This document shows positions 3,001 through 64,000 of a DNA stretch of 64,000 nucleotides, one piece after another. Origin of the DNA: Psammoneis japonica (Eukaryota); NCBI GenBank assembly GCA_008632985.1, contig QPGO01000023.1:403266-467265 (forward strand), read 5' to 3'. The notes beneath the pieces were generated by a model that was given only the letters and a program-made list of their open reading frames with translations, did not search any database and had not been told where the DNA came from. Both the position numbers and the translations under genes were made by a program. Each line of letters starts with the position of its first letter. Within the stretch, counting starts at the first letter, position 1.

Positions 3001-4101
3001 TCAAAGCTGCTCCTGTGCTGGTTGATTGCATTTCTGATCTGTGTGCTGCTGAAGGCCCTGCTGAAGGTGCTCCCGAGCATGATGCTCTGTCGGAGTCCCA
3101 AGGTTTCTCCTGCCGTTCGGTTCTGGGTGAATTGGTCTTTGCTTGCTCGTGTTGATGCTTGGACATTGGTCGTCCTGTTGTCACTTTGTCCAAGTTCTCC
3201 AAGGCTCTGGCTGAACTTCATTGTGACTCTCTCAAGCACATGGCAAAGCATTTGTGGCACAGCAAGCATTGGGGTTTGACGCACAAGAAGGCCAAGTGTG
3301 ATCCTGGTCTTCCTCCTTGTGATTTTGAAGGGCTTGAGGATGATCCCTCTCTTCCTGACTTTCCTTGTGCCAATGATCTGTTTCAGCTTCTTGGTTTTAT
3401 TGATGCAGCTCATGCCAACGAACTTTGGCGTCGACGGTCTGCTGTTGGCTGCGCACATGTCCTTGCTGGTGCTGCGATTGGTTGCTGTTGTTGCGCCCAA
3501 ACGATTGCAGCTGCCAGTTCCATGGAAGCTGAATTTCTTGTGGCTGTTGCGGGTGCCAAGCAGACTCTCTACCTTCACATGGTTCTTGAAGAATTGGGAC
3601 TTCCCCAGCATGATCCTGCTCCCTTGCACATTGACAGCTCCTCTGCCATCCAGATGATCAACAACAAGGTGCCTGCGGAGCGATCCCGCCACGTTGATGT
3701 TCAACATTTTGCAATCCAAGACTGGCATGATGCAGGCAAGATTGTCACTCGACATGTCCCGGGTGTCATCAACCCCGCCGATGCACTGACCAAGGCTGTG
3801 GATTGGACACTTCGTTCCTGCCATGCCTGCCGTTTGATGGGGGACACTGACGTTGATTGTTGTCATGTTTGGCTTGTGGATCAAGTCTTGGGTGTGTTTC
3901 TTGTTTGTTTTTTGCCATTCTGGTCCTCTCTTTTTCACTCGGATTGTCTCTTTTCTTTCTTGATGAGCTTTTGCATTGCTCATCAGGGGAGGGTGACAGA
4001 CATCCGAGATGGGGAGCACACTCCCTTGTGTCGGACAGACTGGCATGGACAGCATTGGGAGATCCGATGATCTCTCCTTTGCTCACTTTCTTTCTCATCT
4101 A
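1..4101 (+). mobile_element. Degenerate Ty1/Copia LTR retrotransposon (diatom CoDi-like), 5' part outside window; integrase-RT-RNaseH order
   Basis: Integrase-like GGELHKNP...GPVEHSHSTVENAIRAILIGANLPIRFWPCAF (~990-1210); RT-like ALQGHPEAGVLWEKH and LLHQVDDFAL (~2590-2770); RNaseH-like SSMEAEF, HVDVQHFAIQDW, INPADALTK (~3510-3800); frameshifts and stops; polypurine tract aggggaggg (3985-3993) followed by TG (3994), the likely 3' LTR start. Confidence 0.92.
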
Positions 4102-20700: not shown

Positions 20701-20834
20701 CACTGCCACAGCAGCTTTGCAGCCACCTGCACAGGAGCACCAATCACAAAACATGCTGTGCTCACAACAAAATGGCAGCCAGCACCAAAAAAGATTTGGC
20801 AAAAAGCAGCTCTCTTGTCTTGTTGAGCTGCCTC

Positions 20835-20835
<1 letters not shown>

Positions 20836-20872
<37 letters not shown>
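20836..20872. repeat. (CA)n microsatellite
   Basis: About 18 contiguous CA/AC units. Confidence 0.95.
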
Positions 20873-20874
<2 letters not shown>

Positions 20875-23165
20875 CCAGACACAAGTGCTTCCACAGCTGC
20901 TGTCACAATGGGAGTCATCATGGCTCTCAGACTGGTCATGCAGAAATTGTGCAGGACAGCGCCGAAAACAGTCATTGTCAGTTTGTCCATCTGTCCATGT
21001 CTGAATGTTGGTTTCTTGGGAAATCAATTGAAGTGCCATCTGATCAAAGGCATTGCTGTTTGCCATGTGAGTCAAAGTGCCTTTTGACGTTTCAAATGAG
21101 TTCCTGCAAAATCACTGGCTCCAATCACTCTGTCGTGCGACACCATTGTGCGCATTTCTTCCACACAATTTTGCAATTTTCCTCATGCAAAATGTCAATT
21201 GTGACTTTGATGCAACATTTTCAAATGACCCCCATTGTGCCAACACTTCAAGGTTTGATTCTTTTTTCAGTGAATGTTGCTGCTCTCACCTGTGCTGCTT
21301 TGGCCACTGAGCTTGCCATGTGCCCAAATGTTTTGACGTGCTTGCCACATGCCCACCCCCATCGTCCAATGAAAAAACATTCCAGCACCCAACCTTTTGC
21401 TGTGGCCTTGTGTGGCTGCACCACATTTGCTGCACCAAAAGCAGAAACAAGTGCAATGACAGCCCAACAACAGCAATGTCCTGAGCCCAAAAGTCCAGCA
21501 CCCAAACACAGGAAAATTGGTCACAACATCTGGTGCTGGGGCAACAGTCTGACATCGCACATGCACGCAGGCAAAACATGTCATTCTTGCCCATTGCGCC
21601 AAACATTTTTTGTTCTCATTTAAATGCAACAAGCATGCAAACAATGTTCCTGGCAATTTCAATTGTGACACTTGGCCACTTTTCACCACACGACAAATTG
21701 CTTTCCAGTCAATCCCCAATTCACATCACTTGCAAACTCTGCTTTGCTTGTTGTTTGAGGCCATTCTTGTTCTGGCATTCAAATGACATCCTGTCTTTAA
21801 TCCATTTTTTGTTGCTGCTGCTGTGAGTTGAATTCTGGTTGACTTTGCTGCTGTCATTGTGTGCTGCTTGCTGGCAAACATCGCCACTCTTCTGTCTGCA
21901 TGCTCGTGCATTCCTTGGCTGCTGCTGTGGGTTGCCATTCACTCTGCCTTCTCTTGAACCCACTTGCATTGAAGGACTGTTGTCCATGGCTGCTTTCCCG
22001 GAATCCCTTCCTCTGCTTTCCCATGTGCATTGTTCCTTCTCACTGCTTCCCTTTTGCTGTTGCTTCAATCAGTTTTTGGAGCAGCCCATCCCTTCATGCT
22101 GTCCTTCTTTCCTCTTTCTTTTCCTGCCATGCGCACTCTCTGTTTTCTTCATCTGCTGGTGCTGTGCATTGACTCTGGCTTTCTCTGTTCTTTCCTCCAC
22201 CACCGCATTGTGCACAGCTTGTTGCGCCATTCAATTCTTCCACTCTGGTTCCGTCCTTCATTGATCCAAGAACTGGGCCGCCAATGAATGCATCTGCAAC
22301 TCACATTGTCTGCACACCCAATGGTTGCTTCAATTGCAGGATTTTGAGATGCCTGCCGCATCTTCAGTCATGAATGCAAAGAACAAGAGCACTGCTTTTT
22401 GGTCGTGCACACCTGCTCTCTCTCTCACTTGCTTGCTTTTTCTTCCTTGGTGGTGGCATTGTTGCCGCAAACACTGAGCAACATCAACACTCAATGATGT
22501 GGTCAAGCAATCGTGTAAAACAGCAATGACAGCACAGATCTGTTGTCATGTCGACACGACATGACAAGATGTGAAGCATCATGGCAACACTTCTTGTTGT
22601 CCATTGTTGTCAGCACGATGTTTTGTCAGGAATTTGGAATCTCTGAATCCGATCCAGTTTCAACTGTCGACTGCCAGGTCTACAGTGATGGAAGTCATTC
22701 TGAAGCGATCCGATCCGGCGATCCGATCCGGCCGGCACGGCTCACCATGTGCAGCAGGGCCCTGCCAGCTGCCAGGGTTGCTCAGCAGTGCCAATGGACA
22801 GCTTGCCGAGCTTCATTTTTGGCATGCCAGTGGAAACTCAATGTGTTTTTACATGCAACAGTTCATCACACATGCTGGGGAAATCACGAACTCTGCGAGC
22901 TCCAACACGAGAACAACATGAAGCACGAAGAGGTTGCGAGAGAGTGAATGTCATTGCCAAAACACTGTGAATGCAAAGTGCAAAATGCCAAAACATTGTT
23001 GTCACATGACACACAGATGGTGAGTCTGTCGACAGACAAAACAAATTGCCTTCAAAGCTGGTCAGAAGCTTCAACAGACTGCACAGCTGTTTGCATGTTG
23101 TTGGGTCGCCCGCGTCGCCCACTTTGAATCATCATTCTCAAATGATCACCATGGCCAACTCCCCC

Positions 23166-42180: not shown

Positions 42181-42390
42181 ACTGGCACGGCTCTGCGTGT
42201 TCAAAGCCCTTCTTGGCCGCTGGCAAGAGGCAAGAGCAGTTCATTGGTGGAGCTTACGACAAAGAGAGCAGTTTGCACAAAAACAAAAAATAACTTTCGT
42301 GGCACACTGAGGTTCAAGGTGCATGGAAGCAACAACACCAATGGCAACAATTCGTTGCCAAGGACCACGGGGCATGGTGGCATGAACAAA
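42181..42390 (-). pseudogene. Mutated fragment copy of the membrane-protein gene at 49112-49948
   Basis: Aligns with 49300-49495; still reads FVFVQTALFVVSSTNELLLP versus FAFVQTALFVVSSANELLLP. Confidence 0.9.
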
Positions 42391-42760
42391 CGGCGCATCT
42401 CACACAACGCCACACCCACACGACATCAACGCTGGTCGATGTGCGGAAGTGTGGTTCACACTGCTGCTGCTCGCACTGCTTACCTGGAGACTATTTCACC
42501 TACCGTATCATCCTCCTCTTGCCCCAAATAACAGAATGACTATGCCGGAACAACCGCCCGCAGATACTGTTATTCCTCGTAGAGATCGGAATCGATCGAC
42601 GATTTCGATGATATCGCAGGGAGTACGTCGATCCATTGTGTCTTGCTTGAGTGAAACCCGCGAGGTTGACTCTCCAAAATATATGAAAGCCAGAGGCTAA
42701 AGCAGACAAGTTTTAGAAGAAGTATTTTAACTTGCATATCAAATTAGCTATGGTAGGGCA

Positions 42761-44040: not shown

Positions 44041-47000
44041 CAGGAGGAAGCATGAAAGCAACAAGCTGTGCGCTGCAACTCTCGGAGTTGAAGCTCATGC
44101 AGTGCGATTGTTTAAATTCGGCTGACGTCATGAGGCCAACACAAGGTGCACAAAATGTGACAGTGAATAAAAACCATTTGTTTCCCCACCACATTTTCCT
44201 CTGCGGTTTCAAAATCTTGCCGTTTTTGAAAAATCCATTCACAAATCGCCGCAACGAAATCACCAGCGACATTGGTGCGGGAACAATGATGTGGGTGGCA
44301 CCACAGGTGTGAAGGAAGTGCACACGAACCCCACCTGCGGAGCATTGGAACCCGTCTGTTGAAGGCAGAGAGTCCGCTCCAGTGTGGAGAAGGATCAAGC
44401 ACTTCTCTTCAGCTTCATCATTCAAGAGAAATGTGATGATTGAAGCCTTCTTTGTCCCTCATGCACCAGCGCTCTTGTGCTGTTGAAATCGGCAGCACAG
44501 GTGTTGCCACGGCTGTTGAAACAGACAGCAGCATTCATCTGCAAAACAGCAAAAGCTTGCTGAGCAGATCATGCCATTGATGAAACACAGGGTTTGGGGT
44601 TCTGTCATGTCAGCAACATGGTGCGGCAAGTCTTCACTTGCAGGGAGTGTTGATTTGGCGCACGCAGTTGACTCGCAAGTTCTCTTGTCATCTCCGCAGT
44701 GCGCCCCCCCCTCTGTTTCTTTTTTTGGATGGTGATCCACCTGGAAAATTGGAAAAAGCTTGAGTGCCATCTTTTGATGGTGCCCTTGAGACAATGTTGC
44801 CCCACACAATGACCAATTTCTGTGTCAACTTTTGACATTGGTGTGTCTCAATCTCTTGAAACTTTCTTTGAAACCACTTTTTCCAATCTGCAGAAGTGGG
44901 AAGATGAAAAGCAAAGTGCAGCAATCTTTGTTTGCGTGCAAGTCATTCCACATGTGCACTGACAGACTGTGGTGGCAGTTGCAGTGCTTGTGATGTCATT
45001 TCTGTTTTTCACCACTTTGTTCTCTTGTTCTCTTTCCTTTTCAGATGGGGTCCACAACGGGGCAGGCATTCATTGCAGTGTGCTTCAAGATGATGTGTGC
45101 TGGGCCATTTCAGCATTGATCATCTGTGTGTTTTCCAATTGATTCGGCATTTGTTGTCAGGGAGTTGCGATCGTTCTGCCAAACTGGTGGAGCAACAGAA
45201 GAATGCCAATTTTCTAAAGAAGCTGGCTGCAAGTCTAGAACACTCTCCAGAGACAAACAAAAGATTCTTTTTTTTTTGCAAGTTCATTTGTGAGATGGCG
45301 CCATGACTCGTTCATCCTCAACTGGCTGGACAATGTTGAAAGCCTTCTTGAGCTGAACAACCAAACCATCAAATGATGCCCGTGTCAGGGTTGAGCAGAG
45401 GCTGTGAGATGAGTTGAATTGATGACTGCGTTGAACATTGGGATTGTCTTCATTGACAATCTTCATGGCCACAGACAATCCCTTGCAAGCAGTCTCCTGC
45501 TCCCAGCCATTGCTCTCAATGGAGGTCACTTTTCCAACATGTGGTCCTCCCAGGGCTGGGACACACAATGGAGTGTCAACTTTGAGAATGCCTTCCGTGA
45601 CTTTGACACCAACAATGTTTTGGATCCTTTTGGTTGAAAATGTGTTGAGGCAAAATGTTGATGATGCTGGGAAACAAAGTGACTCTTTTGGGTAAAAAAA
45701 TGCAAATCAAGTGTGAGTTGATCAAGCAGACCTGCAACTGCTTGTGTGCAACAAAGCATGTGGTTGCCACTTGCGCTGCTGCCTCTCTCATCTGCAATCC
45801 ACTGGAGTTTGTCCATGAACCTGGCAGACTGATCAAACTGGTGGTGGACAATCTCATTGGCGTGTTCTCAGGCCTTGCGCTCAATCATCAACTCAAAGAA
45901 TGCAAGGAATGCAGGGCACTCCAGACAGCCTCTCTTGTTCACAATGAAGATTTTTGTCACATCACGTTTGTGCGCTGCTCCAACTCCAATTTTGCATTCA
46001 AGGGTGTTGGAGGGTTTGCATCTTCCTGCAAGAACCACAGGAGCACTTCAAGTGTGCCCAAGGTTGAGGCTTGGACCATTGTTCTAAGACAGTCAGACCA
46101 CAGACAACAAGTCTGATGCACAGGACTGTCGACAGGGTTCCTCCAGCCATGACCTTCTTGAGTCCATTTCCAAAACTCTTGACACCAAGTGCCCCTTTGA
46201 TTTCTTTATGATGCATGCAGTCTGTTCAGACTTGATGTGCGTTTCTTGGCTTGGCAGCAGCATCAGCATTTTGGTGACAATTGGGCCATCCGCTGTGCAG
46301 TGCATGGTCTTGTTGCCCTCCTGTGCTCATGGGATGGCAGCCATTCACCTCCAGAGCATCTGCACTTGTGCCCAATCACAAGTTGGTCTGGTGTTGAACC
46401 ATGTCACAAAGCAGCATCAAGACACCTTGAACTCCCTCTCCAGTCACAACCGACATTGATGCAAATGGGACAGAGTCAGAATTGGTCTAATCTTTGTCTC
46501 CCATTTCCCAGTGCAAGTTTGAGACAAGGCCCTGTTCCTGCAGTGGAACCTCTGCTTCTACAGAATGACTGGAGACCTCTGAAATCATCATGTGCTTGGG
46601 GCGATCCTTGAGAGCATCTTGAGTTGGAGTGTCTTTTCACATCTTCCAAGCACAGCACCTGTCCACCTTGTTCAATGAAAGGACAGCTTTGTCTGCACAG
46701 CTTGTTGAGACTTTTGATTGTCTGCTGTCACAAACCATTCATGAGATTGTCATCTGGAGTGGCAATGTTGCAAAGGGATGATCCAAGAGAACAAAGATTG
46801 GCAAAGGACTCATGGACTGGTGCATCAATCACAAACATTCCCCAAACTTTGCTGTCAAACTTTTCCCTTTCATTGAGCTCAGCCTGGTTTGGTGGCTAAG
46901 AATCAATTGTTGGAAGCATGTTGCTGAAATTTTCTGTGCAACACCACCTGCTCATTCTGTTTTGTGCTTCATTGAGCTCCCAAGACAAGAAAGGAATGTC

Positions 47001-48640: not shown

Positions 48641-49111
48641 CACGTGTAAGTTAGAAGTTCGGCACATCTGGACGACTCTTCGGCGAGGGTCTGTCTACAT
48701 AAAGTACAAGAGAGTCTTTAAAGTACCGGTAGAACAGGACTACGCCAAAAGACTTTCCATTAGGCTCTAAAAGTTGATATACATTTCCTGTGTACAAGTC
48801 GACGAAGGTAAGGAAGTAGCAGTTACCGTCTTCAGGGTTGATGAAAAGGTGTTCATCCTGCAGTCGGGTACGAGCACATCCGAGACACCACTGCACAAGA
48901 TTTCATCACTAATTTTTGAATGTCGTCAGATTCCTTAGATAATTATTAAAGATGTAATCTAAAATCTATGACACCGTCTTGTCGTTTTGAAAGTACGACG
49001 TAGCATGCAGATTCGGTGCCGCCAGTTCAAGGGTCTCTGCCTAGCTAATGTAACTATGTCCGCTCGCTTGAATTTCATGCAGGTCGATGCAAAAGAGACT
49101 TGACAAATGCT

Positions 49112-49948: not shown

Positions 49949-52900
49949 TTCGGCGTGGTGCTAGGTGAAGAGGAGTTGCTAATGATACTAAATTGTGCTA
50001 ATGTTGGCGTCACTTTGTGAATTCTCGGTCCCACATCAATGTGAACAACACAGAATTCTCTCGTCATTCCAATTTCATCACGCGTTTCCCGTTTTTTGGT
50101 TTCCCGCCATTTTTTGATCTTTTCCGGGTTCTTTCATTGACATCAGCATTGCAGCGCGTGTGATCATTCTGAATTCATCGCTCGCTCGTCGACCTTACGC
50201 GCGTGTCCGTCGCACGTCAAGGCGTTGAGCAAAGTAAACGTACGCAGGATTGAAAGGGCCCAGATGGTTGGAGCAACACGCAGTTCAAAGACACAACTTT
50301 GGAGAAGGCCCATGATGCCATTGCAGGCTTGTTGGGAAGCAGCATTGCTGGCAAGAAGCTTTGCATTTGGTTTGATCACACAGGCATTGGCGCCACCTCT
50401 CAGCAGCAGAAGCAGCACGTCTGCGCCACATGTGGGGCCAAAATGTCGCGATCTGCAAGTGGAGAAGTTTTGGGCTGCAAGATCATTTTCTTGCCACAGA
50501 TGTTGGCATGCATGCAATGGCACAGAGTCACCACAAAAAGCAGCCACTGGAAAGTCATTTCGTGTGTGATCTTGGTTGGGGTCAAAATGAAATCACTGGC
50601 TCGACCCCAAAATCTCGGTTCCAAAAGCAGTGCCTTGTTGGCAAAGTGCCCTGAGACCATTGTGCCAAACTGACTTTGTCATTGAACATGGTCTGCAAAG
50701 CCCTTCTAAGTGAGAATCAGCAAAAAGGTCAGCTTGGTGGATCTGCAATGTTTGCAAAATGTCTTGAGTGCTGGCTCTCTCGTGAGCGCTCTCCAAAGCT
50801 GGCAGATCGTGGGAGGGCACTTTGCAAATCTTGGTTGCTTTCCATGTTGCTTTCCAGATTGCTTTCCAGGTTGCCAGGCCATGCAGTGCTGCAGTGTTTC
50901 TGGTGTGCACTGCCGCATCTCCAAGCCTGGGAGGCTGCTCCAGCTCCCGTTGTCACGCAGAGGTGCGCGATCGTCCATCACTGGCCCATTTTTGCATTCT
51001 TTGGCACAACAAACTCCTTCAAGGGTGAGTGCACACAAAGCTTTTGTTTTTTTGTGCTTCTGTTTTTGAATGATCAAAATTGAAGGAGTTCACACTGCTG
51101 AATGTGGGCTTTGGCTGGCATTGCATTTTGCATGAAGGACACACACATCAAAAAATGCTTTCTGTGTGCACACTTTTTCATTTTGTGGAGCCTGTGTTTG
51201 CAGTCTGCTTCAAGAACTCAACTGACATCTGAGCACAACCACTTTCTACAGACACCAAAAATTTCATTTTCATGGAATGCACCACAAAATGATGATGTCC
51301 TCTCATCCATCTCATCCACCAGCCCCCTTTGTGCACACATTTCACTGACACATTGAATGCACCATGGTCAAGAAAAGGAAGCAAACTGTTCTGGAGTTGG
51401 CCATTGACACAAGTCAGGAACTGGCAGCTGCAAAAACAGAAGGTGTTGTTGTGATGGGCTGTTCTTTCTAAGACAACCCACCCCTCCCAAGTCAATGCTG
51501 AAGGAGCAACAGCCACTCCCTCCAACCTCACCTCTGACAAAATGCCGCCATCACTCCCTCTGTTTCTCCTGCCAGCCAAACTCCTGTCATCTGCAGCACG
51601 CTTCAATTTTGATCTTCAAGCCCATGACAAAACCCACAAAGATCCTCAACAAGTGTGCTGTGTTGTGCAGCAGTCAAAACAACATCAGAGTGCACGACAT
51701 CGTAATGTCTGCACACATGATAAAAACACATTGCTGTGTTGTGAAATCTGCTCATCTGCACATGACGGTTTTTGTCATTTAGTTGATCATCAATCTCCTG
51801 CTGTTCTTCATGTTTGAACACAGATGTTTTTTAATTTTTGTGCTCTGCCTTTTTCACAACAACTGACGATCTTTAACAACAAGCCAAACATTGCAATTGC
51901 ATGCAATGAAATTTTCATCATGCAAAGTGCGCACCAATTGTTTGGTCAATGACTGTGCTCCAATTTGCCTGGTCGTCCGCATGGTCCTCTTCATTCCACA
52001 TGTCTTGTCTGCTCTCTTGCAAGAATTTCAAACATGCCACTGCCGCATTGGATGTTTCCTCGTCGCCGTTCCAAAAAAGCCACACTGCATTTCTTGCATT
52101 TGGGTGAACATCATCGAGAGGAAGAGGTCCCTCGAAATGCTGAATCGCATCACTGCTCCCCTCTTGACGTCGTGTTGTCGGCTTCTTTTTGTCTTTCTTC
52201 ATTTTGCCCGTCCCATTTTTCTCTTCCTTCCTCGTCTTGGCGCCGCCTGTTTTCACCGTCTACGGCATCTTTCCATCCGAGTTCTTCTTTTTCATCGATC
52301 CCGTCGCCATTGCCTTCATCTCTTGTTGTTGTTGTTTTTTTTTCTGTTGTGTCACTTTGTTTTGGATCCATGTTTCTGACTTCTCTCCATGCCATCTCCA
52401 TTTCCAAATGTTTCTTTGTGATTGTTTGCATGCGTCACTTGAAGGCACCCACGTGTTTTTCACGCACCTTAACGCGTGTGTAGAAATCCATGTTGTTTTC
52501 CAGCACATGCACCCTTTTTCCTGATGCTGTTCCGCACAATGTTTTCTTCCATCAATTCCACACTCCGCATTGCCCTTTCCCGGCATGATCTCAAGCAGGA
52601 TTTCCCTGGGAGAAGTCACATGCGCATCTGGCAGGTTTTTGCATTTAAAACTCCAAATCGCACCAGGCGCATGTGTGACTTCTCCCACACACCACTCTGG
52701 CACATTTCTGCAGAAACCAGATTTTTTGGTGTTGGAACAGCAACCATGGCGCCGCATGACCTGTCGGTTGCCTCTCTGTTGCAAGACAACAATGATTCCC
52801 ACCTCGAGGAGGCCGCATTTGAATCTCTCTTTGCCAACGGTTTTGGAGTGATCGACAGCAATGAGCAGAGCCGTGTCAAAGCGACAATCGAGACGGTGAA

Positions 52901-55900
52901 ATCCAAGGTTCAGTTTCACCGTGATTCCACTTATGATCCCTCTCCGAACTGGATCGCGCTTGCCTGTGTGTGGCAAAAGTCGAAGGGCAGACCTCATTTT
53001 TTTGCAGAGCTGATGGCTGTGAACCATGTTGTTGCAAAGGAACTTGGGTGCAAGAGCTTGCTGCACTTTCTTTCCGCAAAAGGATGGAGTTGTTCCAGTC
53101 AAGGCGCCAAACATCCTCATGTGTTGGAGTGTCGCCGTGCTCCCAAAGCAGAGGATGCGAAAGTCGTCGGCGACAAGGCAAAATCAGACGCGTTCCAGGT
53201 CCAGGTGGGACCTCGCACTGCTGAACTGTGACATCGACAGTTTTTTGAATCACGTCGCATGTCGCACACGTAGATTTCTACGTGATTTTTTCAATGTTTT
53301 GTGTCATTTTACGGTGCACTTGTTGAGCGATCCGTCCAACAACTTTTGACATTTTTTGTTGCAGCGCGATTCTATGATGTCTTGAGAATCGCGTGGGGCA
53401 GGCGCATTTGCAAAAACATCAAGTGGTGAGAGGCACAATTGCACCACAAACTTGGCCGTTCATTTGATGTTGAAGACAAATGTGTCCATCAACTGAATTC
53501 TCACACTGCAGAGCTTGCACGTAGAATTCTGCGGGCCCAATGTCACACGGAGTCCCACCTGGGGCTGGAACGCGTCATCAACAGACATTGCAACCAACAT
53601 GATGGCAAAGATTTCCATGTTGCACAAGCTTCTCCATGATCCCGGATTGTGCGACCCAAAGGGAGAGCCACTTGTCAAGCACACCAAGCTGAGAAGTTTT
53701 GAAGGGAAGGTTTTGCGTTACGTGCAATGCCTTCACATTGGTTTTTTGATTCTTTGTGACAAGATTCCACCATGCACACCTGAAAGGAATGGTGATTGCG
53801 ATCATTGGCTGCACTCCCTGTTCGGTGAATGTGATGAGACATCAACTTGCATCAACTTTTTGGAGAATTTCCTGGCTCTTGGTCACTGTGAGATGACCAA
53901 AGAGGAGTGCCCCATGTCCTTCCCTGAATTCAAAAGTCGTTGTTCCGCCAACACAAACATTCTTGGGAAAAGCCTGTGCGACTGGCGATGCTCGATGTCG
54001 AGCGAGAACAAATGTGTGCAACACATGTTGATGAGACTCTTTTAAGATGTGTGAAAATTGATTGTGTGGTTTCTGCCGCTGATGATTCCGGCAAAAGCAA
54101 GGCTGCAAGGGATCGTTTTGAGGCCATGTGGAAAGCCAGGCTTTGTGACTTTGCCACTCAGTGCAAGAAGAAAGAAATCGGCAATGCAATTCCATCCGTT
54201 ACGAAAAATGCTCGGAAACGAAAAAATCCAAATGGCATGAATCCATCACATTGTTTGATTGATTGTTTGTGCTCCTCTTCTTGTCTCTAATTCTTCCATT
54301 CTTCTTGCCACCTCTTTAGCCGCCTCCCTTTGCTCCTCAAGCCCCAGTCTCAAAAACCCCAAAGATGGTGAACCTTCTGATGTTTCTCAGAACGAATCGC
54401 TGATTCTCCAACATGTGCCGACTCTCAAGGAACAATTTGAACATTCCCGAACAAAGTGGCCGACCCTCGGCACGACTCATCAGTCGCCTCCTCCTCTGCC
54501 AGACAATTTCACAAAAGAAGAGCTTGTGAAAGTGTTTCCTGAACCATCTCCGTTTGCGATTCCGGGTGAGGTGAAGTCACAACATTCTCACCTTGTCATC
54601 TTTGAGGAAACCCCCATTTCCGGTTCCTTCAAGGGGAACTGTGTCAAGCACCAGTCATTCCACAGCATCTCCGATTTCTGCTTGGTGAATCACCTCCGCA
54701 AGTTTGTGCATGGATTTGAAAACGGCACAGCTCCCAATGATCCGATGCAAGAATCGATGGCTGCGATTGCTTGCCCAACCCAGCCAACCTCTCATTTTTC
54801 TGACATGGTCACTTGTTTGTGACACACGGACAAGATGTGTCAGAAATGCTTTTTTGGATTGCCAGTCAGTGTGTCGTCGACACTCCATGCAGTGTTGGAA
54901 CATGGCGAGCAGAACGAAAAAAGGGATGGACCAGAATGCAAGTTGCGCTGTCGGATCTGTTTTGGTTGTTGTGGCCAGAATTACGAAGTTGTGGACGGTG
55001 AGTTAGCTGAAGTGGGACCTGCTCACAAGCCTGGTGCTGTCTTTGGCAGGGACAAGTGGGAGAAGCTTCCAAAGGATGTGCAGGCAATGACAGCCTCAAT
55101 CTTGGATGCCACGCAACTCTGCGAGGACGAAATTAATCTTGTTGCATTGAAAGAAATGCGTTCCTTCCATGACCTGCACCGTGACAGTCTTTTCGCGGCT
55201 GAGCTCTGTAAGATGGTTGGAGCCAAGCACATTGGAAGGGAAGGCGTGGAAATTCAAGTTAAGTGCATCTTGTCGTCCGGCAAAAAATCCGTCAATTCGA
55301 AAACTGAGCTGCACATTGACAAAGAGGATTGTGACATGGATGGGTGCACCAAGACTGGTGCTCTTTGCTCATCACTGCGAGACGCTGTTGGTTGCTCTTG
55401 GTCGTTGAAGGTCATCACTGCATCCAAAGGCAATGCTGGAAACTGTGTCAGTTCGGCACATGGGCATGCCGAGTTCCGATCGCGTGTGCATGGTCATTTC
55501 GCAAAACTTGATCTGTCACATGCTGCAGCAATGATGAGACACCGTGGCCCTTGTCGTCCTCCGTCGGGCAAGCCAACCCACAGAAACATCAAAATTTTTT
55601 TCCTTGACCCTCACTCTGCGTGGGTGGAAGAGGAAATTGGCAAGCCAAATCTTCTGTCCAACACAATTTAGTGTCCCGTCATTGTCATGCCGAGGAAACG
55701 TCCTCCGTTTGCCATCGTGAAGGACCCCAATTTCTCGTGCGGTTGTTCGGCAATCATCGACAACCTCGATGAGGTTGGTGCACACGATTGCTTTCGTTGC
55801 GCCGTTGTGGCTGGGTGTCAATCCGGATTCTCCCGTTTTTGCCGCTTGTTGTGCAACACAGATGCTGTGAAGCGTCCTTTTGTGGCTGGCGATCGTGCCC

Positions 55901-58405
55901 TTCATTGCTTCAGAGAAGCCATGAGGCTGTTCGGCAGCATTGCGGGGGATCGCAATGACCAACGCATGCAGAGCCTGGGACTCAATTTTGAGGAGGTTCA
56001 TGTGGCAGAGTGCGGGACGAAACTCAACGGTTTGATGGATTTGCTTGTTGGCAGACTGGTTGTCATCATCGACTGGATCAATGACAATGTTGGCAAGCCA
56101 ATGTTCAACCACAAGGCGATCGAGGATGTGTTTCAAACCGTGGTCCAAACATGGGATCACACAGGTGCTGATTGTGGAGAGTTCAGATGCATGAACTCTG
56201 TGCAGACATTGATGCTGTGTGGCACAGGGATCCATCCTCACCCTGACCTTCACAATCTTGTCTGTCCGGCAGCCAAGTTGGGAGCGGCGAAGCAAATGGA
56301 GGAAATGAAGGTCCCGGTGGAGGAGCGCGATTTACTCTTGGAACAGATGGAGGGTGATTTTGATTTGGAAGACTGTGGAAAGAATGGTCCAGAGTCTTTG
56401 CTGTGTGACCTGAGTGCAGCTCGTGAAAAGATGGGAATCTGCGATGTCTTTTGTTGCGGACAGCATCTGTTGCTCTTGTTCTCTGATGGGCAATCAATGA
56501 CCAAGCGGTTTGGAAGGTGTGAATGGGAGCCAGCCCCATTCGTGTCGATTGATGAAGTTCGAGCCGAACTGGAATGGCAAAGAGAGGTCACTTTTTCGTG
56601 GCAATCACATTTGTTTTTTGTCTGATTGTGCCAACATTGTCACATTGATTTCTCGTTCTAACAGGAAGAAGGCCGCCGGTGATTTGTTGTCATTCACAAT
56701 GAACAAAAGTGATGATTGCAAGGAGGAGTCAATTGACAAGAAAACAAGCAAACTTCCAACTGCTTGCATGGGTGAAGAGGACAAAAGCGAAGAGCCTGTT
56801 GACGATGAGCACAACCAAGTTGCACATTGCTCCAAGGGTGAAGAGGACCACAGCGACTTGGGAGATTGTTTTGCAAGTGATGAAACTGACGGGGAAACAC
56901 ACAATGTGCCATGGTTGGGGATGACCCGTCCACTCAATGCAAGGCAACTGTCTTCTCAAGAATTGTGCTCTGAGAAGGGGGTGGCCTCAGTGTTGTCCGA
57001 CCAACACAGGCGAGATGAGGCCCGCGCAATGGCATTTGAGGAATCTAACAAAACAACCACAAATGTCATTCTGACAGTTTCTCTCCAAGACGGACATCCT
57101 GATCTGCACTTAAATTGCAATGTGAAAGCAAGAGATTTCGTCAAGAGAGTCAAGCAGCAGTTTGAGAAACTTGTTGATTTCGACAATCATGGGTTCGACC
57201 AAATCATGTTGGACTGCTGCTGGATCCCAGATGGAGAGTGGCACGACAGTCGTTTTGGGACGACTCAATTTTTCCAAAATCCAATTGATCTTTGGGCCTT
57301 GCTCTCCAAAAACAAAGAAGGGGGGGACACAGTGATTCCCTTCACTCTTGCAACCTTCTTCCAGGTTGTCAAACAATGGAAGAAATTGTCAGCTGTGTTC
57401 GACACATGCACAATGGACAAGGATGCTGCAAAGAGCTGTGCGAGCACATTCTTTGCAAGCAACCTTACAACCCAAGAACAACAAGAACAGTGGTTGGGAA
57501 AGCCTTCCAATCAGGAAGAAGCTCATCTTGGAGTTTCCCCAAAGAAGACATCAGAATGAAAGCAACGGAAGGTGCTTGCACCGCACTGCTTCACGTGCAC
57601 CGCAATGACTTTGCCAATTCTGAAAGGATCAAATTCATCATGTTTGCGAGAAAGAGTTGGGCAATCACTGTGAGTGAATGACAGATTGACACGTGCACCC
57701 CATTTTAGAAACAAATCTGACCAACACTTCCTTCTGTCCTGTGTGGCCCAAACAAGTGGGGCCTTTTCTTGTGCTTCCACTGCTCCTGGACATTCTTCAC
57801 AAACCAAAACATTGTCCCCAATTGCTTTGACAGGGACAACCCGCAACTTGGGTGAGTGCTGAGTCTTCTCAGGCATTGAAAGCAAGTTGTTTTGTTTGTG
57901 ATCAAGCTGCCAGCGACTGACCAAGTCTGCATGCTGATGCTGTTGCCTCACAGTTCTCTGGTCAATGTTGACAGGGCCTTCATCAAGACTCATGCTCGTC
58001 ATCCTTGTCTTGTGGATGAGAAGGGAAAAGAAGAACAACACGCAAAAAATGGCGGGAAAATGGCAAACATTACATTGTCTTCCAGATTTGGATGACTCTC
58101 ATGGGTGTGACGTGTCTGCATTTTGATTTTTTATCTGGCATTTGCAGCGAACATTGTTCTTTTTTATTTGCTGTCAAAATGAAGGATGTTGTCTCCGTTG
58201 GAACGCAATGACAGCCACATCAAAAAGCAAGTTGGGCTGTTCATTGTTACACACAAACATGTTTTCAAATTTCAATGTTGCCGACAACAATTTGTGCAAT
58301 GTCACAGAGAAAAATGGAGTGGCTGGCTGTCTCAACACGACCCAGACGACGGTTGCACTGTCAAACAGCAACGCTGCTCTCATTGTTGCCGTGCAAAGAT
58401 CAAGA

Positions 58406-59724
58406 TGTCGTCTCCAGCACCACCGGCAAAGAAGAGAAAGAAAAATGAGACTGTCAAGCCAATGAGCCCGAGACTTCAGGCAGTGTTGAAGAGAACAGGT
58501 GCGCAGGCAGTGCATGGTGCATTGAAATCAGAAGCAGAGAAGGTGGCTGGAAATGATCTCTTTCCACAAGTGAAGTTTCTCAGTCCATCAGAGCTGGCAA
58601 GCAATGGGAGCGTCTCAATGTTTGTCAAGAAACAGATTGCTGGTGGCAACATGGACACTTCAAATTGGTCAGGAACTTGGGAGGAATGGGCAAAAAAGGC
58701 AGTAAAAAGGCAAATTGACAATCGCAGAAACACGGTGTGTTCGGCCATTGGGGCGGAGGCAATGGCCCGCAAGTCAAGTGACCAATGTGTGTGACTCGAG
58801 AGTTGCGTGCATCTCACAAGAAGATGACGGTGATGCTTTGTCTGTGTGGGCGTTGTCACTGAGGAAGAGGGAAAGGAAAAAGAAAAGAAACTCAAGGCGG
58901 CAGTCAGGAGGAAAAAGCAAAACAGGAAAAAGTCAAGCCGTGACAAGAATGAAGAGAATGACATCCCGTTTGTGCCGACATGGGATCCGTTCAGCCTGGA
59001 CACTGTCACCGGCGGCAAACGAAGGAACAAGCAGGCACGCAAGTGGTTCTGTGATCACATCCCACCTCAAACCAAGCAAAAGCAGGCATGGAGTCGCACC
59101 GTCAAAACTGGGAATGCACAGGTCTCACAGTTGTTTGTGGCAGGTGACGAAGCTTTGGCGCCATCAGCCATGGAGAATTGTTGGCAGGTGTGGGCACACA
59201 GGAACAAGGAGGAGGCGGTGGAAGAATTGGGTGAGGAAATGGAGCCCGAAGAAACAAGGCCTGCCCCTCAGCACACGAAGCCAAAGAAACAACGAGAGTC
59301 TTGGGGAGATGACGGAATCATTCGGTTCAACGATTCATGCAAAGAGGTGACAAAAGACAGAGACTCCAAGGAGGGCAAGGAGTTTGAAAAGTGGCACGAG
59401 GAGATCAAGAAAAGCGAGTGCAAGAAGTCCGGAGAAGCAAAAAAGAAGAAGAAGACAGCGCCGACCGGTGATGCGGAGAAGGTGAAGGCAATGAACAGCC
59501 CAATGGTGGAGAGCAGCAGGGGTGACAACAGCAATGACGATGAGCAGGAGGAAGGAGCAAAAGGAAAAACAAATGACGGAGGAGATGAATCCGATGAAGA
59601 CAAGTCCAATGAAGACAAGTCCGATGATGATTGTCAGCTCAGTTTGAGAGAGTTGCAGCAAGAAAATGTGCACACAGTTGACACAGCACTCGGTCATTGC
59701 ACTGCAGATGTGACAAGGAATTGA
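58406..59724 (+). pseudogene. Transposon-associated accessory ORF remnant (DEA..hhEN.W ... W..DG..RFN type)
   Basis: LFPQVKFL...W, AGDEALAPSAMENCWQVW, SWGDDGIIRFNDSCKEV; resembles from memory a repeat-associated diatom protein type; not verified. Confidence 0.45.
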
Positions 59725-60099
59725 CTCAACTGATGAAATGTTTTTCTCGTTTAAAATGATGTTTGCGAAATTAACAAACCAAGGTTTGTGTGGCAATGCA
59801 ATCACGCATTGGCACATGGCAACAAGGTGGAGGCAGAAATGGTGATGTGGACATGGTGAAAAACAGCACACACAATTCTCAACAAGTTGTTGCAACATTG
59901 GTGCGCCAAACTTGCAACCAGAGGTTGGCCTGTCATCATGTGACAACAACATTTTGCAACATTTTAATGAATTGTCATCATGCAAATCTACACATTTTTA
60001 ACATTTCGTGCACTCTGATGGCCAAGAGATGTGTTGTCTTGTCTTGTGCTGCCATGACTCAGGAGCAACAAGCCTGCACCTTGCTGGGTGGCCCTTCAC

Positions 60100-63000
60100 A
60101 CACTGCAAATGCCTGAGTTTAACTTCCTTGTTGAGGTTTGTGGTTGAACACCACCAAAAACAAAGGACACTGCTTTGCAAATGGACAAGTGGTTTGGCAA
60201 AATGTGAGGATGTGCCAATGACAAAAGCAATGGTCAGTGCCACACTGATGACAAAAAGACTTTTGTCTGCTGTTCAGTGGCAATTTGAGTCTCAAGTTCT
60301 CCAGACAAATCTGCCAATGAACCCAAGCTGTCTTCCAAGGACTTTGCCAATGCACTTGGTCTAAATCCAAAAACCTTTTGTCAACAAATGAAGCAAAAAA
60401 ATTGCCAGAGTGGCCTTGATTGAGAACAAAAAAGACAATGTCATGTGGTCTTCAGTGCAACCCCACCCATTGGCATGCTCACAAAGTTTCCCCTGAGATC
60501 CTGCCAGAATGGTGTGCAATGCAGCAAGGCAATGGACATGCATGCATTGCAGGAGATCATGGTGAAATCTGCGCAACTGTTTTTGATCAAACATCATGCA
60601 AAATGCAACGTTGTCCTGTGGCAAAAAAACAGTGTTTGCACCATGAAAATTTCTGTTTGAGGATCAAAAATGGTGGCACACTCACTCAGCTCACAAACCA
60701 AAAGAATCGCAGTTGGATTTTGAACACAGAGGAATGTTCACCTGACAAGGCTGCAACCTGTCAGAGTGCCAATGGTGTGAGCAACAAGCCAAGGAGCTCC
60801 CTGCAAACCAGCGACATTGGACAACATGTGTGCCAGTGAAAAAGAGCAAGAGATGCAGATCTCAGCAGAGATCTGCTCACCCATCTAGAGTTCAGCATCT
60901 GTTGTCTTCAAACAGTCTGATGACCATGCACAGCAGTTGGTCTGCTGACATGTCCGCGGAGCCTTTGTGCATTGGTTGCGGTTGGAAAATCATCCTGATT
61001 CAGTGCAGTTGCCCAAAACTCAAGAGATGTGATTCTGTTGAAGAGGAAGAAGATGGAAGCAAAAAAATGAGCAAACAAGTGGTTGCACAACATGTCCATG
61101 CATCAGCTGCACAACAACATCATGTGGAAGCCTGTGGGTTCTGGAGGTTTTGAATTTGCCCATGACGCCAATGGCAAGACCCTCATTGGTGACACCATTT
61201 TTGCTTTTTGATTTGATTGGGCATTGGACAGATTCAAAAAAGGCTTTTAAATGAGATGCAGGTGAAGCAAAAATGGCTGAAGGCTGCAAGTGATGACCCT
61301 GAAATCTCTGACAACCATGACAGTGAAATCATGAATTTGTGGAAGATCAAACTGGCCATTGTCAACAAGAAGCGCTTGGCTCCAGCTCCAATCACCTTCA
61401 TCCCAAAGCATGAGATGCCACTGCATTCACCATTTGCAGCAACACAAATGGTCAGGATCACTCTCATTTGAAATGTGTGTTGGCTGAGTGCAACAATTGC
61501 CCACTCCATCTAACTCCATTGCTGGATGAACAGAACAAAAGTCCCAAAGGACCCCAAATTGTTTCAACGGCATTTGACTGTGATTGGTTTTTCCAAGCAT
61601 GGCATGTTCATGGAAGCATGTCCTGTTTGTGAGGCAGATCCAGGTGGAAATGAGGGTGCACAGCTCAAAAGAAGAATTTTGTTGACAAGGTTCCACAAAC
61701 CTGTTGGGGTGTTTGTGAAAGAGCAACGTGCTCCCAGTTTGAAGAAGCTGCGTTGCCATCTTGGCCAAGTGTCTGTTCTTGGGGGGAATGCATGGAAATG
61801 TGTCACAAACAGCATTTTCACATCTGCTGATTGCTCTGAGCATCTTCCATCTGAGATCAACAACCAAGGTCAAGGCAGCCATTGTGGCAACAGCCAATCA
61901 ATGTGTGCTGAGGGTGGAGTTTGCAATGTGATGATTGACAATGAGTCTAAAAAAATGCACCATGCGCATCTCTTTGATTTGTCCAAGCAAGATGCCACTG
62001 CATCCCAGATGGTTGTGCCAAACAGCACTGGCATGCTTCAGCAATGTGCTTGTTGTCTGTGTTTGCCCACAAATGCAAAGTTGTCTTTGAATGGCTGGAG
62101 CACCTGGACAGGGCAAATGCAAGGTTGATGAAATTAGAGCCTGCACCAAATTTGCCACATGTCAAGAAATGCAGTCTGCAACTGTTGCAGGAGCAAGCAG
62201 CAACAAGGACAAAAAATCAGAGCTGATGCTTTGGTCATGCAGTGGAGCACAGTGTCTTCTTGCAGGAGTGTTTGAAAATTCTTTTGGGGAAGAGAGTGCT
62301 TTTGGGGAAGTTGTTGGTGACAGAGGAAACATGCTTTGAGGGAATCCCACAAAAAGTTGAAAGAAGTCAAAGGGTGCATCAACTGCAAGACCCAAAGGAT
62401 GTTTCTGGTTCTTGCGCCAAAGTCAAGTTGCAAGGATTGGCGCAACTGTGTCAGTGCTGTTGTGGCATTGGTGCCATGTGCCATTTTTGATTAGAGCCCT
62501 TTTTCCCTGTTGGCTGGGTTGCCATGTGACACATTCCTTGTGCTTGTGATGGCTGCCCAGCTCAGCTCAGACAACCTTGGGCAAACAATGAGCACAACCA
62601 AGCAGCCTTGACATGCATCTGGCAACCAATCTCACAAACCCTGGCCCATCTTTGAGGGACTGAATGATTGGCAAGTTTGTCAGGTTGTTCAAACAACTGA
62701 GAGTGTTGCCAACAAGGCACAGTCAGTTCAAAAACTGGGATGGATTTTTGATTGAGGAAAAGGCAGAACAAGTTGTTGCAAACAGCTGTGCCGCCCTGTC
62801 TGGTGAATCTGAAAAGGGCTTTTTTCTGCTGCAACTGGATGAACTGCTGCCCAAAGCACAAGAAAATGCTGTGTGGAATGAGTTTGATCCACCTGCAAAT
62901 TTCAAGGCTGGTCAGTGGGTTTGCATGGGAACACATCCAACCAAGCCGTGCTCCAAGGGCCAGAGGATGGTGCTGCACTCCTGGAGATGCTGGGGAATGT

Positions 63001-63324
63001 CAAACAAGAGTTTTGCTCAAGCAAATTGCAGTTGCAAACATTTTGCTGAATGAACCACCAGGCTCTCTGCAAATTCCAAGGATGTGCAAAAGGAATGAGG
63101 CTTCACTTTTCAGCCCCCATCATTTGACTGAGGATGAGCATGAAGCCATTCTTGGTGCAATGCACCAGCATGAGTCACTGGATCATTTTGAGGATTGCTT
63201 GGATGATGATGATGAAGAGCACAGCAAGCATGAAGAGCCAGAGGAAGAGAGTGACAACAAAGCAGAGGAGGACAACAGTGGTGCGTGGGTGTGGGGGTGT
63301 TGGGGGGGGGAACAACAAAGCTGA
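60100..63324 (+). pseudogene. Degenerate DDE-type DNA transposase-like gene
   Basis: DCSEHLPSEINNQ...HCGNSQSMCAEG, HAHLFDLSKQDA, GAPGQGKCKVD (GHGK..D-like), HIPCACDGCPAQLRQPW; superfamily uncertain. Confidence 0.5.
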
Positions 63325-64000
63325 TGAGGAGGAACAACACGATGACTGGAAAATGAACAAGCACCATGATTGTCACTTTGCATCACCTGACCACCTGATC
63401 AGATGCACCACCCATGACACAAATGTGTGCTTCCAAAGTCACAGCTCACAAGCGTTCTGCTTGCCGACCCTCCGTGCTGTTTTGCCACATTTGGAATTTC
63501 AAACTGGCACACAGCGGCCAATTGTTTTGTTTGTCAGGGATTTGCAACACATTTCACCTCATGTTTGTCATTTCCAAGACACCAGTTCAGCCACCTGACA
63601 TCACTTGCTGGCATGAAAAATGGTGGTTGGAACCAAAGATCCACTCACAGCACAAGGCATTGCAGTGGTTGTTCACTGGATGGCACAAAATCATGCAGTC
63701 ATCATTGCAGGCTGTCACATCAATTTCACCACCTGCTTCCAAGGAAAAGGTTTGCTCCAAACTGCCTCAAAACTTCATTTTGGAGTTCCTTGGTGGGAAC
63801 TTCCCCCTTCAAACAGCTGCTCAGCATGCTCTTTGCAAGCAACACCTGGCTGTTGTCAGTTTCAACTCATTTGGCAGATGTTTCAAGGTGAGATGTGTGT
63901 TCATTCATTTCCAAGTTGCCGACAAAAGACAAAACACTGGCCAGGGACAAAAACACACAAGTGTCTTTGTTTCCTCTGCAAGAGGCAGCTTTGTGGGCAG

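What the first reader, a model, noticed from the sequence alone, without database searches (positions are those of the whole stretch)
52400..59750. TpA loss is uncoupled from CpG loss
Seen: this stretch keeps many CG (e.g. around 55690-56000: gccgaggaaacgtcctccgtttgccatcgtg) yet has very few TA. In 18.2-22.4k and 60-64k both are largely lost. Inference: TA conversion saturates earlier than, or independently of, 5mC deamination. The two ratios could date the silencing of each repeat.
Basis: partly seen in the sequence, partly recalled or inferred. Interest (0 to 1): 0.7.

Follow-up and report, generated by a model that had tools for sequence, protein, structure and literature searches.

The report
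TpA erased before CpG in transposons
In this diatom-like genome a young DNA transposon has already had about nine in ten of its TA steps rewritten to TG or CA but only a third of its CG steps, which shows that an unexplained TA-specific mutation process works in the same silenced DNA as ordinary CG decay but several times faster.

Summary
Observation confirmed: 52400-59750 has TA o/e 0.06 and CG o/e 0.62; the comparison blocks have TA 0.03 and CG 0.12-0.15. The stretch is one 8.3-kb DNA transposon (51683-60020; CATCA..TGATG ends, 2-bp target duplication). Across 20 copies, each mutated independently, 89% of ancestral TA became TG or CA but only 33% of CG (hazard ratio about 5.6). The CG-poor block at 60-64k is an older family. 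The losses are nested, not independent: 117 of 907 1-kb bins lack TA but keep CG, none shows the reverse. TA saturates almost at once, so only CG loss can serve as a rough clock. The TA process gives pure transitions, prefers TAY, leaks weakly to other A's, has no strand clustering and follows chromatin-like domains rather than repeat homology. It matches the TpA hypermutation reported in Bigelowiella natans, and this scan noted it before on other DNA of this genome. Best guess: a host DNA adenine deaminase; the enzyme is not shown. New lead: the element carries a gene whose intact homolog models as a TET-like domain fused to an amino acid:DNA transferase-like domain, which keeps a thymine-modification route open.

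The parts
51683..60020 (+). Whole TIR DNA transposon, PlavakaB-like ends, no transposase recognised; TA about 89% erased, CG about 33% lost
   Evidence: 19 further copies fetched, 92-94% identical; ends; 2-bp target duplication in 10 of 16 copies with both ends
51683..51705 (+). Left terminal inverted repeat, begins CATCA
   Evidence: (I7)
59998..60020 (-). Right terminal inverted repeat, element ends TGATG
   Evidence: (I7)
53187..53576 (.). 390-bp miniature element inserted in this copy (25-bp inverted ends, 4-bp duplication); 5 TA, 23 CG
   Evidence: (I3)
52803..56625 (+). Decayed cargo gene; main frame 54259-56625 has two in-frame stops (54820, 55669) and almost no Tyr
54643..55465 (+). 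Part matching the TET/JBP-like dioxygenase fold of homolog P0001 (residues 158-432); limits approximate; HxD codons at 55312-55320
55466..56529 (+). Part matching the amino acid:DNA transferase / helix-hairpin-helix-like fold of P0001 (residues 434-760); limits approximate; includes the CG-rich patch 55690-56000
56501..57673 (+). Second frame, related to a 277-aa frame beside the open family member L170; no family
58183..59724 (+). Two further Tyr-free frames (58183-58794, 58834-59724); no family
60021..64000 (.). Comparison block: old repeat family, copies about 70-78% alike, TA and CG both lost
18105..22203 (.). Comparison block: TA and CG both lost; only short 71-78% matches elsewhere
44508..45000 (.). 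Small repeat used as control: siblings in TA-normal flanks keep TA, siblings in erased flanks lose it
1..4099 (.). Copia-type retroelement remnant, TA o/e 0.03, CG 0.38; comparison family

Best explanation
Two mutation processes act on the same silenced, transposon-rich domains. (1) CpG decays to TpG/CpA, most likely by deamination of 5-methylcytosine (inferred). (2) A separate host activity turns A:T into G:C at TpA, about 5-6 times faster per step on average and faster still at TAY (shown). It acts one site at a time, on either strand, and keeps acting over many generations (inferred from lack of clustering and lack of re-created TA). The element in the finding is young, so TA is nearly gone while CG is only a third gone; older repeats have lost both. 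The most likely chemistry is deamination of the adenine to inosine, read as G, by a tRNA-deaminase-type enzyme recruited to silent chromatin (inferred; enzyme not identified). Confidence is about 0.9 for 'same domains, different rates, young element' and about 0.5 for adenine deamination; the figure given is for the whole statement.
For: Direction: where intact homologs have Tyr the element has Cys 32% or His 11%; Tyr is the top homolog residue at 9 of 19 TG/CA-dimorphic codons vs 2 of 34 monomorphic ones; siblings of 44169-48646 keep TA. Separate site classes: of columns with both TG and CA, 342 also show CG, 74 TA, 2 both. Independent hits: TG/CA discordance 0.30-0.43 among 12 full copies; 585 singletons vs 53 doubletons. 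Pure transitions: 25 of 5318 outcomes at TA sites are not TA/TG/CA/CG. Context: survival 0.000-0.004 at ATAT/GTAC/ATAC, 0.38 at TTAA; same 3' order in the part-erased pair L170/L171. Leak: A>G at RAY 124/11046 vs RAR 47/20080 vs non-CG C>T 73/21320. No strand clustering, |r| at most 0.052. Nesting. Age: median background divergence 0.016 here vs 0.171 at 60-64k. Ongoing: 8 TA at 60021-64000 vs a rough 69-159 expected had erasure stopped. The genome encodes C5-methylases, TadA-like and ADAT2-like deaminases and two editase loci; no MPG match. Same signature measured per generation in B. natans.
Against: TpA is a palindrome, so sequence cannot tell an A lesion from a T lesion. The deaminases found look like housekeeping genes and none showed a chromatin-reader domain in Pfam. 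Engineered TadA is described as mutating A in any context (PMC10085711, passage), far less TA-exclusive than seen here. The RAY leak has a mixed control: R.Y/R.R transition ratio 3.26 in this family, 1.39 in five TA-intact pairs, but 0.96 in the erased copia family and up to 3.8 in single intact pairs. The rate ratio is not constant: it is nearer 2 in L170/L171 (TA/TA 176, TA/x 114; CG/CG 314, CG/x 87). No methylation, chromatin or expression data. The MPG blank is weak evidence in an incomplete, intron-containing genome.
Confidence: 0.5

Rival explanations
1. Thymine mark with mutagenic decay. A TET/JBP-type enzyme oxidises or hypermodifies T at TpA in silent DNA, and the modified T mispairs with G, so TpA erodes the way methylated CpG does. 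The TET-like/transferase-like protein family on these elements would belong to that chemistry, as source or as counter-measure.
For: The element's gene family models as TET-like plus amino acid:DNA transferase-like, with invariant HxD in 7 of 7 aligned homologs, 65 matches in the genome and two open-frame members. Dinoflagellate 5hmU marks transposons and is reported to replace T preferentially in TA and TC (PMC11572971, passages). Phage T-dioxygenases are sequence-specific and linked to such transferases (PMC13229309, passages).
Against: Fold scores are borderline (Z 7.7-8.8; typical best Z for unmatched models is 7-8) and come from a homolog, not the window protein. No second metal-binding His is conserved in the TET-like part. 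The family is itself a victim of erasure. No Tet_JBP Pfam match in the genome (control silent). That oxidised T causes T>C is recalled, not tested.
Confidence: 0.2
2. Error-prone repair: mismatches from 5mC deamination recruit a Y-family polymerase (eta or iota type) that writes G opposite T in the repair patch.
For: Would explain the shared domains; polymerase eta favours TA (recalled).
Against: Nearly 90% of TA is converted while A>G at AA is about 0.2-1.3%; transversions are at background; TA near a CG survives no worse (154 observed vs 119 expected within 5 bp; 3 vs 18 beyond 40 bp); TA and CG events share no strand.
Confidence: 0.1
3. RIP-like, homology-triggered burst at the sexual stage, with reversed polarity.
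For: Confined to repeats; domain edges can lie within about 100 bp of an element end (L099); diatom DNMT4 is related to RID (PMC9998398, passages) and a chromodomain methylase is present.
Against: No strand clustering; about half of 34 copies of one small repeat keep their TA, as predicted by their flanks (rho 0.82); old blocks stay TA-free; a C5-methylase does not explain A:T>G:C.
Confidence: 0.08
4. The cargo protein removes or shields 5mC on its own element, so CG is kept here by anti-silencing rather than by youth.
For: Fungal TET-bearing transposons, PlavakaB among them, are proposed to counter methylation (PMC12730594, passages); relatives L173-L175 keep CG o/e 0.73-0.78 with TA 0.08-0.14.
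Against: CG loss here is large for so little divergence (hazard 0.39 at 0.0012 pairwise transversions), and methylase-bearing repeats L050-L052 keep as much CG (0.66-0.74). Counts are small.
Confidence: 0.07
5. Sequencing or assembly artefact from a modified base misread as C or G.
For: Random TG/CA choice and sharp domains could arise this way.
Against: A 1007-bp erased flank held on two contigs is 99.5% identical with 1 TG/CA mismatch, against about 35% discordance between independent copies. Contigs of run X1 carry the L171 letter at 39 of 40 listed differences, 11 of them TA steps (X1 may be the source sample, so this checks the assembly method only).
Confidence: 0.02

Closest known systems
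TpA hypermutation of integrated viral DNA in Bigelowiella natans (bioRxiv 10.64898/2026.01.13.699255; parts 1-3 of 5 read)
   Same: A>G and T>C transitions at TpA on both strands, in silent foreign DNA; TA-poor windows enriched for transposon domains; adenine deaminase proposed, not shown.
   Different: Here a diatom-like stramenopile, not a rhizarian; near saturation across transposon families; read from copies, not mutation-accumulation lines; parallel CpG decay, TAY preference and RAY leak, none of which that text discusses (term search for CpG, flanking, trinucleotide, thymine, diatom gave 0; its supplements were closed).
Repeat-induced point mutation (RIP) of ascomycetes and TCG hypermutation of Pucciniomycotina
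   Same: Dinucleotide-specific transition hypermutation that wrecks transposon genes.
   Different: Opposite polarity (TA is destroyed, not made); no strand clustering; repeat status alone is not enough.
CpG decay by 5mC deamination in methylated transposons (diatom DNMT5 system, PMC9998398 passages)
   Same: The CG part: C>T on both strands, increasing with age, in transposons.
   Different: Cannot account for TA loss, which is the faster process.
TET-bearing PlavakaB transposons of fungi (PMC12730594 passages); 2OG-oxygenase accessory gene of red algal Plavaka (10.1101/2025.02.11.637652 passages)
   Same: 5'-CATCA..TGATG-3' ends, 2-bp target duplication, dioxygenase-like cargo.
   Different: Diatom-like host; no transposase found in this element; the dioxygenase-like domain is fused to a transferase-like domain and seems to lack the second His.
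Phage thymine hypermodification: T-dioxygenase plus amino acid:DNA transferase (PaMx11 gp46, PDB 8z2m; PMC13229309 passages)
   Same: The two folds that the cargo homolog resembles.
   Different: One polypeptide on a eukaryotic transposon; no sequence-level match; kinase partner not looked for; no activity shown.

Membership tests
B. natans-type TpA hypermutation | TA>TG/CA transitions only, both strands | tested here: met
   TG 2425, CA 2265, other 25 of 5318 outcomes; polarity
B. natans-type TpA hypermutation | Restricted to foreign or silent DNA | tested here: met
   Gene-rich segments TA o/e 0.57-0.59; erased blocks are repeats. Silence itself not measured.
B. natans-type TpA hypermutation | Rate about 1000 times background per generation, in some lines only | not testable with these tools
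   Needs mutation-accumulation lines; relative excess here is about 200-fold or more over other substitutions
B. natans-type TpA hypermutation | Same enzyme | not testable with these tools
   Unknown in both organisms
RIP | C>T polarity that raises TpA | tested here: not met
   TA is lost
RIP | Triggered by duplication as such | tested here: not met
   One small repeat: TA survival 0-0.95 across 34 copies, set by flanks, rho 0.82
RIP | Strand-coordinated runs (feature recalled) | tested here: not met
   Residual strand correlation at most 0.052 in all distance bins
RIP | Acts before meiosis, needs RID | not testable with these tools
   Methylase genes present, roles unknown
CpG decay by 5mC deamination | CG>TG/CA on both strands, rising with age | tested here: met
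   TG 1120, CA 1105 at 407 sites; CG o/e 0.63 young vs 0.19 old; ongoing in L073/L076
CpG decay by 5mC deamination | The CG sites are methylated | not testable with these tools
   No methylome
Polymerase eta WA signature | AA mutated at a rate of the same order as TA, with transversions (feature recalled) | tested here: not met
PlavakaB transposon | Ends 5'-CATCA..TGATG-3' | tested here: met
   All 34 ends shown (window and 19 loci); definition
PlavakaB transposon | 2- or 3-bp target duplication | tested here: met
   10 of 16 copies with both ends; the window copy is among the 6 without
PlavakaB transposon | Plavaka DDE transposase | tested here: inconclusive
   No Pfam match in nine frames of the mutated element; non-autonomous or too decayed
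TET/JBP dioxygenase | TET-like double-stranded beta-helix fold | tested here: inconclusive
   Homolog model: TET2 Z 8.8 (rmsd 4.7, 209 aligned), NgTET1 8.6 (3.8, 172), CcTet 7.2, FTO 7.2, CMD1 6.5; no Foldseek, Pfam, PDB-sequence or Atlas match
TET/JBP dioxygenase | HxD metal motif | tested here: met
   H381 and D383 invariant in 7 of 7; HID in the window copy
TET/JBP dioxygenase | Distal His and 2-oxoglutarate Arg | tested here: inconclusive
   No conserved second His in this domain; 32 residues from HxD to the last conserved strand; no residue-level structural alignment was available
Amino acid:DNA transferase (PF18724 clan) | Helix-hairpin-helix-like transferase fold | tested here: inconclusive
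   PaMx11 gp46 Z 7.7 (rmsd 4.7, 214 aligned); Atlas features 0.85-0.88, under the 0.9 lead line; viral library row prob 0.80, E 0.09; 8-oxoG glycosylases Z 5.7-6.0
Amino acid:DNA transferase (PF18724 clan) | Partner 5hmU kinase and activity on phosphorylated 5hmU | not tested

The most novel reading that the evidence does not exclude
TpA is a second epigenetic palindrome in this lineage: thymine in TpA of silent DNA is enzymatically oxidised or hypermodified, the modified base decays to C as 5mC decays to T, and a family of transposon-borne TET-like/transferase-like fusion proteins takes part in writing or resisting that mark.
Probability: 0.12. Interest if true: 0.93.

Novelty: new variant of a known kind. 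Interest (0 to 1): 0.72.

Why it matters
A natural process that turns A:T into G:C in chromosomal DNA at a chosen dinucleotide has one preprint precedent and no identified enzyme. This element gives a calibrated record of it beside CpG decay: relative rate, context, leak, lack of clustering and domain dependence. These narrow the candidate enzymes and can be compared with the B. natans mutation list. A native duplex-DNA adenine deaminase, or a mutagenic thymine mark, would be a new genome-defence chemistry and of use for base editing. In practice, transposon ages and annotations in such genomes are distorted: about three quarters of the differences between copies lie at TA or CG steps, so divergence-based ages are inflated and Tyr-free frames evade profile searches.

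Tried and rejected
Independence of the two losses: rejected at domain level, kept at event level. TA as product of CG via TG/CA: rejected, only 2 of 76 TA columns with both TG and CA also show CG. Erasure in the master before amplification: rejected by star-like discordance. Strand-specific RNA editing of a retroelement: rejected, DNA transposon with TG about equal to CA in every copy. TA as a clock: rho -0.05 with divergence. Homolog search with frame 54823-55668, longer proteins only: nothing. Pfam, PHROGs, PDB sequence and Foldseek searches of the cargo family: no match at E 0.001. Single-sequence fold of the window frame: pLDDT 32.6, unusable. Atlas search of the TET-like part: no usable hit. 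Tet_JBP search of the genome: 0, control silent, so no evidence. Viral contigs: no relative. Metagenome contigs: 3 short loci, all TA-normal, o/e 0.47-0.57, no context. Sequencing runs for L170: no RNA holder listed. Literature searches for TpA loss in diatom or protist repeats and for a TET plus transferase fusion in diatoms listed no such paper; the library lacks most subscription journals. PMC7755918 passages gave nothing on context. Rows left out: 8 of 34 small-repeat copies (intermediate or duplicate) in the intact/erased means; one search counts the window copy twice for 22790-24071; only 24 of 1739 candidates were scored, so unerased copies of this element are not excluded.


Full report
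OBSERVATION. The counts hold. 52400-59750 has 268 CG (o/e 0.62) and 31 TA (0.06); 55690-56000 has 23 CG and no TA; 18200-22400 and 60000-64000 have CG 0.15 and 0.12, TA 0.03. A two-state segmentation splits the window into TA-normal segments (the two long gene-rich ones TA 0.57-0.59, CG 1.04) and five TA-poor blocks: 1-4099, 17841-24071, 41366-42480, 44169-48646, 50000-64000. Genes in the normal segments are eukaryotic (PDS5, HMG box, MIOS, P450), and the named relatives of one of them are pennate diatoms. The CG contrast between the finding and the two comparison blocks is strong (odds ratio 4.9, p=3e-37); TA differs slightly too (31/7351 vs 15/8202, p=0.007).

WHAT THE STRETCH IS. It is one dispersed repeat. 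The genome search gave 62 matches from 24 of 1739 candidates scored; I fetched the 19 best other loci, 92-94% identical. The shared unit runs 51683-60020, with a 390-bp insertion at 53187-53576 that most copies lack at this place. It has terminal inverted repeats, ends CATCA..TGATG, and a 2-bp target duplication in 10 of 16 copies with both ends. These are the stated features of PlavakaB transposons (PMC12730594, passages). No transposase was recognised in nine frames, so I call it PlavakaB-like, not a proven member.

TA WAS THERE AND WAS CONVERTED IN EACH COPY. Of 9210 differences between the window copy and 19 others, 4134 are TG/CA double differences and 2820 are CG versus TG/CA. Columns with both TG and CA fall into separate classes: 342 also show CG, 74 TA, 2 both, 243 neither. 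Intact protein homologs fix the direction: of 461 aligned Tyr positions the element has Cys at 32% and His at 11%; Tyr is the top homolog residue at 9 of 19 TG/CA-dimorphic codons and 2 of 34 monomorphic ones, and Arg at 6 of 8 codons that still show CG. Each copy has TG and CA in similar numbers, and the 12 full copies disagree at 30-43% of sites with no close pair; background variants are 585 singletons and 53 doubletons. The letters are real: an erased 1007-bp flank held on two contigs is 99.5% identical, and contigs of run X1 carry the other copy's letter at 39 of 40 listed differences in L170 (X1 may be the source sample).

RATES. At 315 inferred TA sites survival is 0.109; at 407 CG sites 0.675. 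The hazard ratio is 5.65, bootstrap 4.97-6.43, a lower bound because the fast contexts are saturated. Site classes were inferred from the copies, so sites converted the same way in all copies are missed. Other substitutions are near 1% per copy.

WHY CG IS KEPT HERE. The element is young: median background divergence 0.016 against 0.171 for the family at 60021-64000, whose CG o/e is 0.19. Over 67 copies of five families CG falls loosely with divergence (rho -0.25, p=0.04), TA not at all (-0.05). A 97.2%-identical erased pair differs at 68 CG steps, 11 TG/CA steps and 5 TA steps: CG decay goes on after TA is spent. For 18105-22203 I have only short 71-78% matches, which fits an old block but does not date it. 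Protection of CG by the element's own cargo is not needed: other young erased repeats keep as much CG.

NESTED, NOT INDEPENDENT. Among 907 1-kb bins from the window and all loci then held (overlapping and repeat-enriched, so not independent), 573 have TA o/e below 0.15, and of these 117 keep CG above 0.7; 279 have TA above 0.35, and none of these has CG below 0.3. In a 490-bp repeat from 44508-45000, TA survival across 34 copies ranges from 0 to 0.95, follows the TA level of the flanks (rho 0.82) and correlates with CG survival (rho 0.53). Sixteen TA-intact copies have 5.58 TA and 5.89 CG per 100 bp; ten erased ones 0.51 and 4.69 (8 copies left out). Being repeated is therefore not enough; lying in an erased domain is what counts. 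Within copies of the large element the two kinds of event share neither strand nor position, and per-copy survivals correlate only weakly (rho 0.34, p=0.14). The ratio varies: about 2 in the part-erased pair L170/L171.

FINGERPRINT OF THE TA PROCESS. Outcomes are transitions: 25 of 5318 are not TA, TG, CA or CG. Written on the A strand, a 3' C or T raises the hazard 3.5- to 4-fold over a 3' A; survival is 0.000-0.004 at GTAC, ATAT and ATAC and 0.38 at TTAA. L170/L171 repeats the order (C 0.24, T 0.26, G 0.16, A 0.08). Outside TA, A>G is raised with the same 3' preference: RAY 124/11046, RAR 47/20080, against C>T at CC/CT 73/21320. The control is supportive but mixed: ratio 3.26 in this family, 1.39 in five TA-intact pairs, 0.96 in the erased copia family. 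There is no strand clustering at any distance, and TA near CG is not hit harder. Erasure seems to continue: 8 TA in the old block against a rough 69-159 expected from back-mutation, and 58 TG/CA swaps against 13 new TA at near-fixed sites (some may be misclassed ancestral sites).

MECHANISM. Shown: direction, rates, context, independence among copies, domain dependence. Inferred: 5mC deamination for CG; an enzyme for TA. I put adenine deamination first (0.5): pure transitions, a strict 5' T, a graded 3' preference that leaks to other A's, and the same proposal for B. natans. The genome has TadA-like and ADAT2-like genes, a weaker deaminase match (L067), two editase loci, several C5-methylases, one beside a chromodomain frame, and no MPG match (weak). 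None is tied to the process. Against: TpA is palindromic, so the lesion could be on T; and engineered TadA is described as acting on A in any context (PMC10085711, passage). Error-prone patch repair (0.1) and a RIP-like burst (0.08) fit the fingerprint poorly.

THE CARGO GENE. The main frame has 60 relatives in the representative library and no Pfam family. A model of the intact homolog P0001 (pLDDT 79.8) aligns residues 158-432 to TET2 (Z 8.8), NgTET1 (8.6), CcTet and FTO (7.2) and CMD1 (6.5), and residues 434-760 to the phage PaMx11 amino acid:DNA transferase (7.7). The Atlas (0.85-0.88) and one viral-library row point to the same transferase clan. These scores are borderline, and sequence searches and Foldseek on PDB gave nothing. 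HxD is invariant in 7 of 7 homologs and kept in the window copy; a second His is not evident. The family has 65 matches in the genome; L170 and L171 have open frames of 1373 and 1411 aa and are only partly erased. The plain reading is an anti-silencing or DNA-protecting accessory gene, as proposed for fungal TET-bearing transposons. It also keeps a thymine route open (0.2): dinoflagellate 5hmU marks transposons and is reported to prefer TA and TC (PMC11572971, passages), and phage T-dioxygenases travel with such transferases (PMC13229309, passages).

WHAT IS KNOWN. An earlier scan note led me to the B. natans preprint. I read parts 1-3 of 5: 230 A:T>G:C mutations, all at TpA, among 231 mutations in two viral inserts, with an adenine deaminase proposed. 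Its text has no mention of CpG, diatoms or flanking context; its supplements were closed and bear on the TAY comparison. Five searches for TpA loss in diatom or protist repeats and three for the fusion listed no describing paper, within a library that lacks most subscription journals. This scan has reported the TA erasure many times in this genome, including the TAY preference and domain edges; look-ups by sequence and by words found no note on the cargo gene. Features of RIP, polymerase eta and oxidised-T mispairing are recalled.

VERDICT. Real and well measured. The uncoupling is a difference in speed on shared targets, seen in a young element. The process is a new variant of a kind reported once; the enzyme is open. 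Interest 0.72.

Noticed in passing
L170:3478-7596 (-) and L171:3227-7459 (-): Open-frame members (1373 and 1411 aa) of the TET-like/transferase-like family, 94% alike over about 7.6 kb, caught early in erasure; L171 has lost more TA than L170 (82 vs 32 one-sided sites).
   Followed up: partly
L050-L052, L056, L059: C5-methylase genes lying in TA-erased DNA, apparently carried by repeats (TA o/e 0.03-0.11, CG 0.24-0.74).
   Followed up: no
L053: C5-methylase frame next to a chromodomain frame, in TA-normal DNA; fits the described diatom DNMT4 type.
   Followed up: no
L162/L167 (C40) and L163-L166 (C79): Two separate adenosine-deaminase (editase, PF02137) loci; the C79 one lies right at the edge of a TA-erased block.
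   Followed up: partly
L064:313-1785 (-): One frame joins a guanine-deaminase-like domain to a 2OG-Fe(II) oxygenase whose top PDB hits include thymine 7-hydroxylase; probably base salvage.
   Followed up: partly
L107 and L109: Two copies of the element share the same left flank (99.5%) but have different right flanks and differ inside like independent copies: recombination between copies or an assembly join.
   Followed up: partly
window 45374-48100: Erased copy of a sequence whose relatives on other contigs keep normal TA and CG; one relative (L090) has a kinase-like frame.
   Followed up: partly
window 22790-24071: 1.2-kb element with inverted ends; copies show every stage of TA loss (survival 0 to 0.70), some with one half erased more than the other.
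   Followed up: partly
   Followed up: no
window 4411-4484, 5114-5159, 5241-5292: Short tandem arrays built on a TTCGAA motif just outside the first erased block, in TA-normal DNA.
   Followed up: no
P0014, P0019, P0030: Three of 64 public homologs have under 1% Tyr and high Cys+His, as TA-erased frames do; the process may occur in other sampled organisms.
   Followed up: no
L099 right flank; L101 right flank: TA returns to normal density within about 50-140 bp of the element end, whereas most other flanks stay erased for 600 bp or more.
   Followed up: partly
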